This document shows, piece after piece, positions 19,911 to 27,787 of a DNA stretch of 36,617 nucleotides. The stretch is from positions 1 through 36,617 of the IMG/VR virus record IMGVR_UViG_3300043823_000212; one strand, 5' to 3'. This DNA is from a virus (Duplodnaviria; Caudoviricetes). Under the pieces are notes generated by a model, which worked only from the letters and a program-made list of their open reading frames with translations, was not told the origin of the DNA and made no database searches. Made by a program: the position numbers and the translations under genes. Positions within the stretch are counted from its first letter, which is position 1, and every line of letters begins with the position of its first letter.

Positions 19911-20264
19911 ATGTCAGTAACTTTAGAACTTCCTTACCCTCCTAGCGTGAACGCATATTGGATGGCATCTGGTCACCGGCGCTACATATCTAAGCGCGGT
20001 ACAGAGTTTAAGAAAGCTGTAGCAGAAGCCTGCATAGGGTTGCCAAGCTTTGGGGATCAGCCCGTAGAACTGTCAGTAATCCTCCATCCAAGAGATAAGC
20101 GACTAATGGATATAGATAACTGTGGAAAGGCAATATGCGATTCATTACAAGGGTATCTGTACGAAGACGATCAGCAAGTCTGGAAGCTGACTATTGAACG
20201 TGCCGAAAAGATTAAGGGCGGAGGATGCGTAGTGACCATCAAGGAATATCATAAACATGAATAG
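19911..20264 (+). CDS. rusA: RusA-family Holliday junction resolvase
   Basis: LPYPPSVN.YW, D.R.MDIDN..K...DSL, DDQQV motifs. Confidence 0.9.
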   Translation: MSVTLELPYPPSVNAYWMASGHRRYISKRGTEFKKAVAEACIGLPSFGDQPVELSVILHPRDKRLMDIDNCGKAICDSLQGYLYEDDQQVWKLTIERAEKIKGGGCVVTIKEYHKHE

Positions 20265-20351: not shown

Positions 20352-20392
20352 AAAAACTGAAAAACTAGAAAAACTGAAAAACTGGGAAACTG
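20352..20392. repeat. Tandem degenerate 8-9 bp repeats (AAAAACTG, about 5 units)
   Basis: aaaaactg aaaaactag aaaaactg aaaaactg ggaaactg. Confidence 0.75.
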
Positions 20393-20504
20393 GGGACGAT
20401 GAAAAGTTACCTTAAATCAGCTATTTCAGGGTATTGACAGAACTAGATTTAGTAGGTGAGCAAATAAATTCCCCTAAATGTTGATTTATGTGTATACTTC
20501 ACTT

Positions 20505-20590
20505 GCGGGTTTCTTCATTTCCCGCTCCTCCATGCACACATCCTCCGTGCACTCAAAACTCCGGGCTTAATCCACCCGGAGTTTTTCTTT
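20505..20590 (+). ncRNA. Putative ~86-nt small RNA with three hairpins and CU-rich loops
   Basis: TATACT -10 at 20493-20498; stems GCGGG/CCCGC and TGCAC/GTGCA followed by a terminator hairpin. Confidence 0.5.
20555..20590 (+). terminator. Intrinsic terminator (possibly bidirectional)
   Basis: AAAACTCCGGG-9 nt loop-CCCGGAGTTTT followed by TCTTT. Confidence 0.75.
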
Positions 20591-20718: not shown

Positions 20719-20747
20719 TTGCACGGGTACAAATTCTTGTGTATACT
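20719..20747 (+). promoter_or_regulatory. Sigma70 promoter
   Basis: TTGCAC-17-TATACT with A-rich upstream sequence. Confidence 0.7.
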
Positions 20748-20753
20748 TTCCAT

Positions 20754-21137
20754 GCCGATAGGGATATTGGTGTATTATTCTAGGAGCGAAGGCCTTTTAG
20801 GTCTGTTATTTCGCACAACGTAAGTTTTGCCTAGAAGATTTACGCTGTGTTATATCCTAGAAATAGCAGATTTGAGAGGCTTTTTCTTTTTCTATCAGCC
20901 TAGCCCGTTCTCTTCGTGTTGTGACGGTAAAGGTGCAGTAAACCCCCTAGAAGATAAATGGTGGTAAAACACCCTTCCCTATCCGGATTGCTTGGATAGA
21001 GTGGAGAACCGTCCTGTAATGGATAGACCGATGACGTGATAATGACAGACCTAGGCACGACAAAGACATCGAAGCAATTGTGCAATAAACTCAGCAAGAC
21101 TGAAAAAACACCTGTTCCTCATAGTAGGGATAGGTGT
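20754..21137 (+). ncRNA. Putative large structured ncRNA or leader RNA
   Basis: 25-bp and 16-bp nested stems plus further 7-12 bp stems; nearly all departures from perfect inverted repeats are G-U pairs on the + strand; no long + strand ORF. Confidence 0.65.
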
Positions 21138-21166
21138 GTCCAAAATCTAGCAATCCTGAAGGAGAG

Positions 21167-23455: not shown

Positions 23456-23621
23456 CCACCAAGAATACACATTTATTACACCACCAAAACCAGTAGGTTA
23501 TTGGATTTTATATCCACAACAAGGTGCTTATAAAACTCAATTTGCTATGTATTACAGGCCAACAGATGAGCAGATTAAAAATACAGAGGAATTACTTGGA
23601 TGGGGATGGATTGATGAATGA
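23451..23621 (+). CDS. 56-aa hypothetical protein
   Basis: Read by hand; strong SD; ATGA overlap with ppk2. Confidence 0.6.
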   Translation: MNHQEYTFITPPKPVGYWILYPQQGAYKTQFAMYYRPTDEQIKNTEELLGWGWIDE

Positions 23622-24373
23622 GCACGATAGATCAAACTGAAGAATCACCACGCAACCTCATCAGCCTAAAAGACTATGAGGCCCGCAAATATCTACTACA
23701 AATCGAACTACTGAAATGGCAAAACCATGTTAAAGAAGCTAATACACAACATATCATTATCTTTGAAGGACGTGACGCTGCCGGTAAGGGTGGCGCTATT
23801 AAACGCTTTATGGAGCACCTTAACCCGAGGACAGCAAGGGTGGTGGCTCTTAACAAACCAACTGATGCGGAGACCAGAGAATGGTACTGGCAAAGATACA
23901 TCGCTCAGTTTCCCCACGCAGGAGAAATCACATTTTGGGACCGGTCTTGGTATAACAGAGCAGGCGTTGAATCAGTTCTTGGATTCGCTAGCGCAACACA
24001 AATTGAACGCTTCTACGTTGAATGCTCTCAACTTGAAAGAATCTGGCAAGAAGCCGGCATCAAAATCATCAAATTCTGGTACTCTGTCAACAAAAAAGAG
24101 CAAGCCCGTCGCTTTAAAGAACGTGAAACCCACCCGCTCAAGCTCGGAAAGCTCAGTGAAATCGACATCCTCAGCCAAGACAAGTGGGAAGACTACACCA
24201 AAGCCAAAGACCGCATGTTCAAAGAAACCGAAAACTGGGTACAAGTCAAAAGCAACTGCAAAAGGAGCGCTAGAATAGCCTCTATGCAATATGTGCTCCT
24301 AAATAATGATTATTGGGGTAAAAACATGGATAATATTGGGGAGATCAATACCGCAATTTTGAAGGAACTATGA
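23618..24373 (+). CDS. ppk2: Polyphosphate kinase 2 (class I-like)
   Basis: FEGRDAAGKGG Walker A, LNPR, WY.QRY, DRSWYNRAGVE and lid EQARRF..R...PLK..KLS motifs. Confidence 0.93.
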   Translation: MSTIDQTEESPRNLISLKDYEARKYLLQIELLKWQNHVKEANTQHIIIFEGRDAAGKGGAIKRFMEHLNPRTARVVALNKPTDAETREWYWQRYIAQFPHAGEITFWDRSWYNRAGVESVLGFASATQIERFYVECSQLERIWQEAGIKIIKFWYSVNKKEQARRFKERETHPLKLGKLSEIDILSQDKWEDYTKAKDRMFKETENWVQVKSNCKRSARIASMQYVLLNNDYWGKNMDNIGEINTAILKEL

Positions 24374-24684: not shown

Positions 24685-25440
24685 ATGAAGATTAAGTTAC
24701 AAGACATCACTATTGATGCGGATATGCAAAGCCGTGACTCAGTAGATGAAGCTATCGTTAATCAATACGCAGAATGTATGCAGGAAGGGTCTAAATTCCC
24801 TCCTGTAACGATTCATACAGATGGTGAGACCAACTGGCTTACCGATGGATTTAAACGCTACTACGCCTCATTAAAGAACGGCTATGAGGATATTGAAGTA
24901 GTCATCCATAAAGGTAGCCGTAGAGATGCGGAGAAGTTCTCTTGGGGCGTCAATGATAAGCACGGTCAACCTAGATCATTAGCGACTAAGCGCTTGATTG
25001 TTATGAAGGTTTTAGATGATCCTGAATACGCAGATCAACTTGACCGAGAGATTGCCCGTGTTACCAACCTATCGCATACGTTCATCGCCAATATGCGTAA
25101 GGAATTAAAGAAGCCACATCCAGTAAAGACAGAGAAGCCCGTTAAACTGAATACAGTAGTAGAAGCTCCACTTGAAGAAGATCATGTCCTTAAAGAGTTA
25201 GCGGATCTTAACAAAGAACTTCACGAAGAGAACCAAAAATACCGAGATCAGGAGATGGTTCTTACCGGAGATAAAGCAACAACATTTAGTGAGATTGAAG
25301 ATTTACGTAAGCAAATCAATATCTTAGAGATGGAACTGACTGCTGTTAAGAATACTCGTGACCAATTGCAATCTAAAAATGCAGAGTTGATTAAGTCCGT
25401 CAACTACTGGAAAAAGAAATACGAAAAAATAGCAAGCTAG
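24685..25440 (+). CDS. ParB/Srx-domain protein with HTH and coiled coil
   Basis: Q.R...V.QYA...FPPV....LTDGFKR N-domain; DREIARVTNLSHTFIAN HTH. Confidence 0.75.
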   Translation: MKIKLQDITIDADMQSRDSVDEAIVNQYAECMQEGSKFPPVTIHTDGETNWLTDGFKRYYASLKNGYEDIEVVIHKGSRRDAEKFSWGVNDKHGQPRSLATKRLIVMKVLDDPEYADQLDREIARVTNLSHTFIANMRKELKKPHPVKTEKPVKLNTVVEAPLEEDHVLKELADLNKELHEENQKYRDQEMVLTGDKATTFSEIEDLRKQINILEMELTAVKNTRDQLQSKNAELIKSVNYWKKKYEKIAS

Positions 25441-25465
25441 TAAAAACACTAGCTGTTTAACAATC

Positions 25466-25528
25466 GGGAAGTCTGTATCATTAACTCATGTTTCACGTGC
25501 ATGGGGATACAGCTTCCCAGCCTTTTTT
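25466..25528 (+). promoter_or_regulatory. Bulged long hairpin plus U-tract (attenuator-like) upstream of the helicase
   Basis: GGGAAG(T)CTGTATC/GATACAGCTTCCC outer stem, CTCATGT/GCATGGG inner stem, then CCTTTTTT. Confidence 0.55.
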
Positions 25529-25538
25529 GGAAATAGAG

Positions 25539-27008
25539 ATGCTTCAATTACGCCCCCACCAAAAAGAGGTGGTCGATAAACTATCTGAAGGTTTTGAACA
25601 TCATCGTTGTCAAATACTATACGCACCTACAGGATTCGGTAAGACTGAGGTAGCTATGGCAATCATGCAAGAGGTTGCCCGTAAGTATAAGAGAACGGCG
25701 ATTGTTCTAGACCGTGTTGTATTAGTAGAGCAAACCAGCCTACGTCTAGGAAAATACCATATAGATCATGGAGTTATACAACGAGATCATTGGAGAAGTC
25801 GTCCGCATCTACCAATTCAAGTATGCTCTGCTCAAACTTTAGAGAAGCGTGGAATCATTCCAGATATTGATCTGCTTATCATTGATGAGTGCCACGTTCA
25901 AAGACGCAAGACAGTAGAGTTAATTAAGAATAATCCTCATCTTAAGGTGATTGGATTAACTGCAACTCCGTTCACCGATGGGTTAGCAAACACTTATACC
26001 AATGTCATCGGCGCACTTCCTACTGGCGAGTTGATTGACAATGGCTGGTTAGCTCCATTGAAAGTCTATATCGCTAAAGAAATTGATATGACTGGTGTTA
26101 AGAAGGTAGCTGGTGAGTGGACTGGCGAAGCCGTAGCAGAGCAAGGCATGAAGATCACGGGCGATATCGTAGCTGAATGGGTTAAGAAAACCTATGAGAT
26201 ATTCGAGAAGCCTGAGAAAACTATTGTGTTCTGCTCCGGTGTCGAGCATGGTAGAGACTTAGAGAAAGCATTTAAAGAAGCCGGTCATAACTTTGTGTCT
26301 ATCTCGTATAAGGAAAACGATGACTTTAAAAGAGAAACTATTGAAGAGTTTGCGAAACCTGATTCGACAATCAAAGGACTTATTGCCACAGATATTCTCA
26401 CTAGAGGTTTCGATGTTAGTGATGTCCGTATTGGTGTTAGTGCAAGGCCTTTTAGCAAATCCTTTTCGAGCCACGTTCAGCAGTTAGGGCGTGTTATGCG
26501 TCCGCATGAGGGAAAAGAGTTTGGCGTATGGCTAGATCATTCGGGTAATTACCTACGATTCAGAGATGACTGGGATAAGTTATACGATCACGGCGTAGAA
26601 GAACTCAAGGATGGTTCTGAAAAGACTAAGAAAGAACCTACTCTCAAGGAAAAGAAAGAAGCATGCTGTCCGTCTTGCGGTGGTTTATGGACATCAGGCA
26701 ATACTATCTGCGATGAGTGCGGGTTTGAACGCAAGAAACCTAATCATATTCTTGTAGTTCCGGGCGAGATGCAGGAATTACAGGCTGCCAATCGCAAGCT
26801 CATCATCAATAATCAGAAGTTCTACTCGCAGATCATCTACTACGCTAAGAGTAAAGGTTATAAAGATGGCTGGGCGTTCCACAAATATAAGGAAAAATTC
26901 GGCGTTGAACCAAGAGGGCTACATACAAATCCTGAGCCACCTGAACCAGCTACTATGAACTGGATCAAGTCAAGACTAATCGCCTACGCTAAAGGGAAAG
27001 CAAGATAA
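25539..27008 (+). CDS. SF2 DNA helicase (RadD/YejH-like) with C-terminal Zn finger
   Basis: LRPHQ, APTGFGKT, DECH, GLTATP, QQLGRVMR motifs and CPSCG...CDECG; start placed at the ATG before LQLRPHQ. Confidence 0.9.
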   Translation: MLQLRPHQKEVVDKLSEGFEHHRCQILYAPTGFGKTEVAMAIMQEVARKYKRTAIVLDRVVLVEQTSLRLGKYHIDHGVIQRDHWRSRPHLPIQVCSAQTLEKRGIIPDIDLLIIDECHVQRRKTVELIKNNPHLKVIGLTATPFTDGLANTYTNVIGALPTGELIDNGWLAPLKVYIAKEIDMTGVKKVAGEWTGEAVAEQGMKITGDIVAEWVKKTYEIFEKPEKTIVFCSGVEHGRDLEKAFKEAGHNFVSISYKENDDFKRETIEEFAKPDSTIKGLIATDILTRGFDVSDVRIGVSARPFSKSFSSHVQQLGRVMRPHEGKEFGVWLDHSGNYLRFRDDWDKLYDHGVEELKDGSEKTKKEPTLKEKKEACCPSCGGLWTSGNTICDECGFERKKPNHILVVPGEMQELQAANRKLIINNQKFYSQIIYYAKSKGYKDGWAFHKYKEKFGVEPRGLHTNPEPPEPATMNWIKSRLIAYAKGKAR

Positions 27009-27787
27009 TGGACTTCCAACAATTCGCAGAAATGCACGGACTCATCATTGACCATCTAGTTCACGATCAATGGGTGCGTGTGCCAACGACTGATAAACCT
27101 CGTAAAAAGAATGGTAGCTACATTTGGGATGGTAAGTCAGGTGCAGTAAAGAATTGGGCAGTCCACGATAAAGCGATATCTTATAAGACTAAAGAGTATC
27201 GTCCTGATCCTGAATTTAAAGCAAAGAAAGAGAAGCAAATTAAAGAACGTCAAGCCCGTCAGGAGAAAGCTAAAGAGCGAGCAATCGGAATCCTTAATGC
27301 GTCTGTCATCCAGCGTCATGCTTATCTAGTAAAAAAAGGATTCTCAGAAGGTAATGTATGGAAGGATGCGCTCGTCATCCCAATGATGATTGATAAAAAG
27401 ATTGTAGGATGCCAGCTTATATCCCAAGATGGGACTAAGCGGTTTCTGTCAGGGCAGATTACTAAAGGTGCGTCTTTCACTATTGGTAGTGGTAGAGATA
27501 TATTGACAGAAGGTTATGCCACAGCTCTCAGCGTCCACCGTGCCATTACAGAGTTAGGGATTAAGGCTAAAGTCCATGTCTGTTTCTCTGCTGGGAATAT
27601 GCTGGAGATAGCGCAGAAATGTAAAAATCCCATTGTGATCGCTGATAACGACCCCGTTGGGATTCGAACCGCCAAGAAGATTGGCAAATACTGGGTAAGT
27701 GATGTAGATGGTGAAGACTTTAATGATGCTGAGTTGAGACTTGGCACTAAGTCTGTCTGCCAGAGTCTCTCCCCATTATTTAAGTGA
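27008..27787 (+). CDS. Toprim-domain DNA primase
   Basis: HAYL.KKG, Q.I...G.KRFL.G, TEGYATA, IADND and DFND motifs. Confidence 0.85.
   Translation: MDFQQFAEMHGLIIDHLVHDQWVRVPTTDKPRKKNGSYIWDGKSGAVKNWAVHDKAISYKTKEYRPDPEFKAKKEKQIKERQARQEKAKERAIGILNASVIQRHAYLVKKGFSEGNVWKDALVIPMMIDKKIVGCQLISQDGTKRFLSGQITKGASFTIGSGRDILTEGYATALSVHRAITELGIKAKVHVCFSAGNMLEIAQKCKNPIVIADNDPVGIRTAKKIGKYWVSDVDGEDFNDAELRLGTKSVCQSLSPLFK

What the first reader, a model, noticed from the sequence alone, without database searches (positions are those of the whole stretch)
20754..21137. Promoter-driven ~385-nt structured RNA with self-complementary loop and bulge sequences
Seen: a TTGCAC-17-TATACT promoter puts +1 near G20754. 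Positions 20788-20812 pair with 20860-20884 over 25 uninterrupted bp, 7 of them G-U. Inside is a 16-bp stem (20813-20828/20835-20850, one mismatch) with loop GCCUAG and a 9-nt bulge UAUAUCCUA, and a U-rich tract follows the outer stem. The 5' end can pair with ~20889-20899, and more stems occur at 20979-20999 and 21108-21137. The wobbles work only on the + strand, which points to selection on RNA rather than a DNA cruciform. The loop (UGCCUAG) is complementary to CUAGGCA at 21051, and the bulge region is complementary to UUCUAGGA at ~20778 and partly to UAGGGAUA at 20759 and 21125. Known: P4 CI and P1 C4 RNAs use loop and bulge sequences to pair with targets up- and downstream in their own transcript. 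Inference: an antisense or attenuation switch gating the nin/replication operon, or an origin-associated RNA. I cannot match it to a known family.
Basis: partly seen in the sequence, partly recalled or inferred. Interest (0 to 1): 0.8.

Follow-up and report, generated by a model that had tools for sequence, protein, structure and literature searches.

The report
Self-coded RNA switch gating phage replication
A freshwater phage carries two structured RNAs in a row: the first has two loops that match two sites at its own start, in a code that differs from phage to phage, and likely works as an on/off switch, while the second sits where sister phages keep their replication-start gene and may help start DNA copying.

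Summary
The stems are real, but the region is two modules, not one RNA. Module A (20754-20893) is a 5' hairpin, a linker, and a long rod with a bulge, an apical loop and a U-tract. Across 49 distinct relatives the bulge pairs with the 5' hairpin loop (48 of 49, against 12% of cross-phage pairs). The apical loop pairs with the linker (31 of 42, against 128 of 1628). Both pairings vary faster than the stems and reassort. This is P4 CI / P1 C4 logic in an RNA Rfam does not recognise; no second, downstream target was found.

Module B (20900-21156) is an EGFOA-like RNA below Rfam's cut-off. Betaproteobacteria-1 RNA or a third family fills the same slot elsewhere. In one sister phage, module A gates a full-length replication initiator instead. 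All 8 near-complete cargo-RNA genomes tested carry either helicase plus primase or an initiator lacking its N-terminal half.

Best reading: a likely sequence-specific attenuator for replication and superinfection control, with B possibly acting at the origin (about 30%). Nothing is shown experimentally.

The parts
20719..20747 (+). predicted sigma70-type promoter (-35 at 20719-24, -10 at 20742-47)
   Evidence: -10 box kept in relatives; not listed by the scanner; activity untested
20754..20771 (+). module A, 5' hairpin P1; its loop side (20760-67) is target site a1
   Evidence: a1 overlaps a hairpin loop in 47 of 49 variants
20778..20784 (+). module A, single-stranded linker, target site b1
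   Evidence: pairs with apical loop, -9.6 kcal/mol; covaries 31 of 42 vs 128 of 1628
20788..20884 (+). module A rod: outer stem 20788-20812/20860-20884, inner stem 20813-28/20835-50
   Evidence: 22 of 33 consensus pairs with double changes, 0 of 500 shuffles as high
20829..20836 (+). apical loop b' (antisense to b1)
20851..20859 (+). bulge a' (antisense to a1)
   Evidence: 48 of 49 variants score 6 or more, against 12% of 2258 cross pairs
20881..20893 (+). U-tract closing module A, predicted intrinsic terminator
   Evidence: U-tracts in relatives were required by the search, so their frequency is not independent evidence
20900..21156 (+). module B, EGFOA-like structured RNA of about 260 nt; hairpins at 20905-27, 20960-73, 20973-21006, 21108-37; predicted pseudoknots 20946-50 with 21051-55 and 21011-17 with 21045-50
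   Evidence: 59 viral loci; 10 of 48 predicted pairs with double changes; EGFOA 15-27 bits vs cut-off 37.7; no conserved reading frame
19911..20264 (+). RusA-like resolvase gene upstream (context)
   Evidence: phrog_34
24685..27787 (+). ParB-like, SF2 helicase and Toprim primase genes at the far end of the same-strand gene run (context; co-transcription with A and B is inferred)

Best explanation
Module A is a structured RNA whose bulge and apical loop pair with two sites in its own leader in a phage-specific code, and it likely works as an antisense-controlled transcription attenuator that limits read-through into module B and the replication genes. Proposed working, all inferred. On a first transcript, a1-a' and b1-b' would form in cis before the 3' strand of the outer stem is made. 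This closes a ring around the 5' strand, so the polymerase-tethered 3' strand cannot wind two turns around it; no terminator forms and transcription reads through. As finished or processed rods build up, their loops would bind a1 and b1 on new transcripts first, the outer stem would zip, and the polymerase would stop at the U-tract. The result would be negative feedback on replication and exclusion of phages with the same code. Module B is an EGFOA-like RNA; my leading guess (about 30%) is that it acts at the replication origin in place of the initiator's N-terminal domain and iterons.
For: Shown: two covarying pairings against cross-phage and shuffled controls, in loci chosen by other features. 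The same pairings recur out of sample in L128/L129 (one compensatory change between two near-identical phages), MW202674, MW202426, MW202545 and MW202520. Among 30 close relatives the loops differ more (0.42 and 0.63 mean pairwise) than five stem windows (0.11-0.30) and give 22 a/b combinations, with 7 b types shared by different a types. That is what a specificity code would show; P1 and P7 differ by 4 nt in such a loop (PMC5320573, passages). The rod ends in a U-tract. In MW202520 the same switch lies 19 nt before a full-length initiator followed by P. For B at the origin: of 50 cargo-RNA records, 26 match initiator family phrog_9327, all 26 only in its C-terminal part; 14 others carry the helicase, 13 of them also the primase; the sets do not overlap and together cover 8 of 8 records at least 90% complete. 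In complete genome G036, 57 of 59 ORFs scanned gave no other initiator, helicase, primase, integrase or large repressor. Betaproteobacteria-1 RNA begins 34 nt after the primase stop in Acidovorax phage AP1, a record picked by primase similarity alone.
Against: No transcript, end or termination is shown. Covariation cannot tell cis from trans: a1 can reach a' in cis in 45 of 49 variants, and a fold-back at the bulge could bring b' near b1 (outer minus inner stem averages 6.5 bp), so a compact cis structure fits too. There is no second downstream target as in P4 and P1 (9 of 36 own vs 56 of 199 cross). 11 of 42 long forms score under 6 for b, and the short forms (L250, L260, L266) have no b pairing. 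The b' window may be shifted by indels, inflating its divergence. The finished RNA carries a1 and b1 itself, so trans action needs processing or loop exchange that is not shown. For B: most of the 26 truncated-initiator records belong to one phage group, so they are few independent events; only one initiator family was tested across the 50; Rhizobium phage RHph_I3_18 has the stand-alone domain with no A or Betaproteobacteria-1 match; true EGFOA RNAs lie before terminase-like, capsid-like, ParA-like or polymerase-like genes by my reading of the ORFs, not always replication genes.
Confidence: 0.5

Rival explanations
1. Module A acts only in cis. The two pairings are tertiary contacts of one compact RNA, or a kinetic fold that sets a fixed read-through fraction, and the loop sequences drift with compensation.
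For: a1 can reach a' in cis in 45 of 49 variants; fold-back geometry is plausible; no downstream target; targets and loops are always in one short transcript.
Against: Loops diverge faster than stems under the same pairing constraint, and a and b types reassort. Known RNAs with this layout act in trans (PMC4825925, PMC5320573, passages).
Confidence: 0.3
2. Module B and its slot-mates are put-like nascent RNAs that bind RNA polymerase and make it resist later terminators in the long early operon.
For: B follows a promoter or Cro-like gene at the head of a same-strand gene run; no N or Q was recognised in G036; HK022 put works this way (PMC9378689, abstract).
Against: It does not explain why the initiator lacks its N-terminal half in 26 of 26 matches. 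Betaproteobacteria-1 can sit directly before a gene that looks like a Q-type antiterminator by my recall (L398; Pfam gave only a weak sigma-70 region 4 hit). B is about 260 nt with predicted pseudoknots.
Confidence: 0.2
3. Module B is a trans-acting small RNA or RNA scaffold with a role unrelated to replication, placed here because the promoter is strong.
For: Rfam types EGFOA and Betaproteobacteria-1 as sRNA; two EGFOA RNAs form a trimer and a dimer in cryo-EM (bioRxiv 10.64898/2026.07.01.735769, passages); some EGFOA loci lie before structural genes.
Against: Three unrelated RNA families fill the same slot next to replication genes. A sister phage has the initiator gene there instead.
Confidence: 0.3
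4. One reading: one long RNA in which module A's loop and bulge pair with sites at 21051 and 21125.
For: In the window the loop does pair with the 21051 site (-11.9 kcal/mol), and an 8-nt word at 20759 recurs at 21125.
Against: Both sites are present in 37 of 37 relatives whose loops differ; pairing in 1 of 37 and 0 of 37. The 21051 site has a partner at 20946 in 33 of 33 distinct B sequences, and the 21125 site lies in a stem.
Confidence: 0.05

Closest known systems
P4 seqA / CI RNA immunity, and IsrK of Gifsy-1 (PMC4825925, PMC3632133; passages)
   Same: Short RNA from a phage early leader, complementary to an upstream site in its own transcript; the known outcome is premature termination before replication genes.
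   Different: No Rfam match. No downstream seqC-like target found within 800 nt. The antisense rod itself ends in the U-tract. It occurs in complete phages with no recognised integrase or repressor (G036). It gates a non-coding RNA in most cases.
P1/P7 C4 antisense RNA (RF01695) and c4-a1b1 motif (PMC5320573, PMC2864571; passages)
   Same: Two antisense loops (a', b') with two upstream targets (a1, b1); variable loops as a likely specificity code.
   Different: C4 is a three-stem RNA that blocks translation at a2/b2; this is a single bulged rod with no a2/b2 and no antirepressor gene recognised. No Rfam score.
EGFOA RNA (RF02955)
   Same: Full-model alignment at 17-27 bits in relatives; shared loop motif; a predicted pseudoknot with two compensatory changes between the families; a similar 3' hairpin beyond the Rfam model; gene-free setting.
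   Different: Below the 37.7-bit cut-off; an extra hairpin and a shortened central part; conserved over about 260 nt against the 108-nt model. A profile built from B did not find the true EGFOA loci.
Betaproteobacteria-1 RNA (RF02932)
   Same: Fills the same slot behind module A (13 of 32 pattern loci, plus L095, L285, L401); shares a short 3' hairpin-and-tail motif by eye.
   Different: No match to the window; different core structure.
Antisense-controlled plasmid replication: pT181/pIP501 attenuation and ColE1 RNA II priming (recalled, not read here)
   Same: An RNA switch upstream of the replication initiator or primer, with loop sequences that define incompatibility.
   Different: Those antisense RNAs come from the opposite strand. 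Here antisense and target lie on one strand; no counter-promoter was listed by the scanner within the element.

Membership tests
C4 antisense RNA (RF01695) / c4-2 | Rfam covariance-model score | tested here: not met
   no hit at E up to 10 in the window or E up to 5 in 40 related loci
C4 antisense RNA (RF01695) / c4-2 | three stem-loop fold | tested here: not met
   single rod with one bulge and one apical loop
C4 antisense RNA (RF01695) / c4-2 | a' and b' loops complementary to upstream a1 and b1 | tested here: met
C4 antisense RNA (RF01695) / c4-2 | second targets a2 and b2 downstream | tested here: not met
   9 of 36 own vs 56 of 199 cross within 800 nt; farther sites not tested
P4 CI / seqA (IsrK-like) | antisense RNA pairs with an upstream leader site | tested here: met
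P4 CI / seqA (IsrK-like) | downstream seqC target | tested here: not met
P4 CI / seqA (IsrK-like) | processing to a short trans-acting RNA (RNase P suggested for CI and C4, PMC5499578 passage) | not testable with these tools
   needs RNA ends
P4 CI / seqA (IsrK-like) | RNA-induced premature termination and immunity | not testable with these tools
   needs transcription and infection assays
EGFOA (RF02955) | gathering score 37.7 bits | tested here: not met
   18.2 bits in the window; 15.3-26.7 bits in 5 of 5 relatives
EGFOA (RF02955) | conserved loop motif and its upstream partner | tested here: met
   4 of 4 EGFOA loci have CUAG with CUAG; 31 of 33 B sequences have CUGU with ACAG; the B loop was the search pattern, so its invariance is by selection
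EGFOA (RF02955) | long intergenic region without genes | tested here: met
   no ORF of 90 aa or more between 20264 and 21695; B lengths spread over all three frames, 16/16/9
Betaproteobacteria-1 (RF02932) | Rfam score | tested here: not met
   no hit in the window
intrinsic terminator | G+C-rich stem base followed by a U-tract, and termination there | tested here: inconclusive
   stem and U-tract present; the simple scanner, limited to loops of 3-8 nt, did not call it; termination untested
iteron-type lambdoid origin | repeated initiator-binding sites | tested here: not met
   no 9-mer three times in A+B of the window or L393; such repeats are present in three full-length initiator genes

The most novel reading that the evidence does not exclude
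A widespread group of phages has replaced the origin-binding half of its replication initiator, and the iterons, with a structured RNA. EGFOA, Betaproteobacteria-1 and a third unnamed family are interchangeable RNA origins. They are licensed by a same-strand antisense switch whose two-part loop code defines incompatibility groups.
Probability: 0.3. Interest if true: 0.9.

Novelty: new variant of a known kind. Interest (0 to 1): 0.72.

Why it matters
It extends RNA-only immunity of the P4/P1 type to abundant freshwater phages, some with no recognised repressor or integrase, and gives a natural library of at least 22 two-loop codes among 30 close relatives. It also ties two Rfam motifs of unknown function (EGFOA, whose cryo-EM structures were posted in 2026, and Betaproteobacteria-1) to phage replication modules. 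That makes their function directly testable with short constructs. If B is an origin RNA, phages would have a ColE1-like, RNA-defined way to start replication, coupled to a truncated initiator.

Tried and rejected
Coding explanation: rejected; B lengths fall in all frames and only 1 of 41 (plus) and 7 of 41 (minus) sequences have an open stretch of 60 codons. DNA cruciform: rejected; 229 G-U pairs vs 25 A-C mismatches in the 49 rods. tRNA/tmRNA: none. Downstream second targets: no enrichment. GC skew: follows the coding strand, flipping at about 14, 20, 28 and 33 kb, so it says nothing about an origin. Expression: no RNA holder was listed; this is no evidence either way, and no reads were laid. 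First 15-mer scan gave 94 loci, none with extended homology. Genome-collection scan gave 22 loci with no convincing module B (best 11.4 bits), so no host was identified. Cultured-phage DNA searches with the element found nothing significant. A long EGFOA-consensus pattern found 0 loci; a shorter one found 24, of which 5 are true EGFOA. Of 114 metagenome matches, 32 passed a fold filter and 19 of those are module A by inspection, adding one new variant. Fold of the truncated initiator (pLDDT 83, 7-row alignment): no match at E 0.001 by Foldseek, best VIA Z 6.0, no PDB sequence match; a DnaT-like reading was considered and is unsupported. My first idea that b1-b' is sterically impossible in cis was dropped after considering fold-back at the bulge. 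Earlier findings of this scan: none shown.

Full report
Setting. The window is a 36.6-kb virus record, about 58% complete. The element lies in a gene-free stretch between a RusA gene (19911-20264) and small nin-like genes; the same-strand run ends in ParB-like, SF2 helicase and Toprim primase genes. The host is unknown.

Observation. All stem coordinates hold. The 25-bp helix is the longest in the window, the plus strand folds 28 kcal/mol better than the minus strand, and z is -4.94. Rfam gave only an 18.2-bit partial EGFOA match at 21035-59 and one other weak hit.

Two modules. Relatives found through RusA and through a downstream 18-mer (59 loci) show two units. Of 94 regions examined (window, 58 module-B loci, 32 loci with a Betaproteobacteria-1 pattern, 3 others), 65 had a long stem with a U-tract: the window, 48 of 58, 13 of 32 and 3 of 3. 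These gave 50 distinct variants; I dropped one near-duplicate (L244), leaving 49. In L148 and its kin, the window's own type of module A is followed by Betaproteobacteria-1 RNA (88 bits), and in L100 by a third family.

Module A. The rod covaries: 22 of 33 pairs have double changes, 96% of cells pair, and 0 of 500 shuffles reach this, though related sequences can beat such shuffles. Two long-range pairings covary as well. Bulge with leader scores 7.6 on average for own pairs, 4.6 for 2258 cross-phage pairs and 4.7 for shuffled leaders; 48 of 49 reach 6, against 12%. The target overlaps the loop of the 5' hairpin in 47 of 49. Apical loop with the 17 nt before the rod reaches 6 in 31 of 42 long forms, against 128 of 1628 cross pairs. 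A structure descriptor fired at one site only in the window and found the element out of sample in MW202426, MW202545, MW202674, MW202520 and L128; it also gave three hits with very large gaps that I take as false. No second target was found within 800 nt downstream (9 of 36 vs 56 of 199). Among 30 close relatives the loops are more variable than the stems and give 22 combinations.

Mechanism of A (inferred). P4 CI RNA causes premature termination by pairing with seqA and seqC (PMC4825925, passages). C4 uses loops a' and b', and 4 nt separate P1 from P7 specificity (PMC5320573, passages). Here the targets precede the rod by 4 and 20 nt. During synthesis, P1, the inner hairpin and the bulge exist before the outer stem can close (nested folds only, pseudoknots not modelled). 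If b1-b' and a1-a' form then, the outer stem's 5' strand is inside a ring, and the tethered 3' strand would not be able to wind around it; the terminator fails and transcription continues. Mature rods binding a1 and b1 in trans would free the stem and stop transcription. A 20-25 bp helix is a plausible RNase III substrate (recalled), which could release the rod from its leader. A cis-only fold remains possible.

Module B. It is conserved over about 260 nt at 86% mean column identity, with 10 of 48 predicted pairs showing double changes, and has no conserved frame. EGFOA scores are 15-27 bits in 5 of 5 relatives, always at B. True EGFOA loci (5 of 24 pattern hits) share a loop and an upstream partner with two compensatory changes: CUAG with CUAG in 4 of 4 distinct loci, CUGU with ACAG in 31 of 33 B sequences. 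They also share a 3' hairpin outside the Rfam model (by eye). A sequence profile of B did not retrieve them. I call B EGFOA-like, not a member.

Where cargo RNAs sit. In the 34-kb group the order is Cro-like gene, A, B, small genes, then a 123-127 aa protein matching only the C-terminal half of replication initiators. A separate group has Cro, Betaproteobacteria-1 and a 143-158 aa protein with the same C-terminal half. In 7 of 32 pattern loci Betaproteobacteria-1 starts within about 20 nt of the end of a primase like the window's. Of three public records chosen by primase similarity only, AP1 has Betaproteobacteria-1 34 nt after the primase, MW202545 has A plus Betaproteobacteria-1 about 1 kb after it, and MW202426 has A about 50 nt after it. 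I gave 50 of the RNA-bearing records to whole-record searches. 26 match phrog_9327, all from profile position 153 onward, in open frames of 123-182 aa. 14 others have the helicase, 13 of them also the primase; 10 fragments have neither; 8 of 8 near-complete records have one or the other. The window has the helicase-primase set and no phrog_9327 match.

Contrasts. MW202520 has the same Cro family and a complete module A, followed directly by a 244-aa initiator with internal repeats and a P gene. Methylophilaceae phage P19250A has the full 221-aa initiator with repeats and no A or Betaproteobacteria-1 match genome-wide. Four Pseudomonas records with 264-279 aa initiators, and one unannotated Paraburkholderia record, show no such RNA within 3 kb. 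MW202674 has the stand-alone domain, module A and the third cargo. Against: Rhizobium phage RHph_I3_18 has the stand-alone domain and no match. My models are family-specific, so absences are weak, and most truncated-initiator records are close kin.

Literature. Searches. 'EGFOA' occurs in one relevant held paper (bioRxiv 10.64898/2026.07.01.735769; abstract, passages and methods read), which gives structures and, in what I read, no function. 'Betaproteobacteria-1' with 'RNA motif' gave 0 papers. I read passages of PMC5737381, PMC2864571 with supplement passages, PMC3632133, PMC5499578, PMC12360218 and bioRxiv 10.64898/2026.09.15.751765, and the abstract of PMC9378689. The supplement of PMC5737381, which should describe both motifs, could not be read; nor could three supplement files of PMC10690425, a screen of phage RNAs, or the supplementary text of PMC2864571. 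Any of these may already list module A or note the replication context. The primary P4 and P1 papers were not read (one was asked for and is not held). ColE1, pT181/pIP501 and lambda O details are recalled.

Verdict. The feature is real and biologically selected. Module A is a new variant of the CI/C4 kind: it likely works like them but fails membership on fold, score and downstream target. Confidence in the trans-attenuator mechanism is about 0.5. Module B is an EGFOA-like RNA with about 0.3 probability of an origin role. Interest 0.72.

Noticed in passing
window 20481-20590 (+): A second predicted promoter (-10 at 20493-98) precedes a roughly 85-nt RNA with three hairpins, two single-stranded UCCUCC (anti-Shine-Dalgarno-like) words and a terminator-like end. 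Similar sequence lies in L100, L116, L132 and L140. No Rfam match.
   Followed up: partly
L100:3740-3950, L128:3700-3950, L426:900-1150: A third cargo RNA family behind module A, sharing a GACTTAAATGGGTACT core; no Rfam match.
   Followed up: partly
L400:6950-7450 (MW202426): Gene-poor stretch after primase and module A with no Rfam match; possibly a fourth cargo family.
   Followed up: no
L240-L271, L399, L402, L420, L424: Betaproteobacteria-1 and EGFOA both extend about 80-140 nt beyond their Rfam models and end in a similar hairpin and tail (by eye).
   Followed up: partly
window 20352-20400: Four copies of AAAAACT at 8-9 nt spacing plus degenerate copies, in the intergenic region upstream; could be protein-binding repeats.
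   Followed up: no
window 20759-20766 and 21125-21132: The same 8-nt word occurs in a1 and in the 3' hairpin of module B, and the loop also matches 21051; both hold only in this phage. Unexplained, probably chance.
   Followed up: partly
window 23618-24373: Phage-encoded polyphosphate kinase 2 (PF03976, E 6.5e-76).
   Followed up: no
L393:4933-5310: The truncated initiator has a further two-helix C-terminal part (residues about 80-125) with weak shape likeness to Rho N-terminal, SAP and LEM domains (Z about 4.5, noise level).
   Followed up: partly
L250:187-244; L400:2402-2469; L439:710-776: A hammerhead type II match just under cut-off, and two int-alpA matches just over cut-off, in related phages.
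   Followed up: no
L159, L175, L194, L197, L204: Module B without module A, behind a promoter and a shorter or different leader, in phages of the helicase-primase group.
   Followed up: partly
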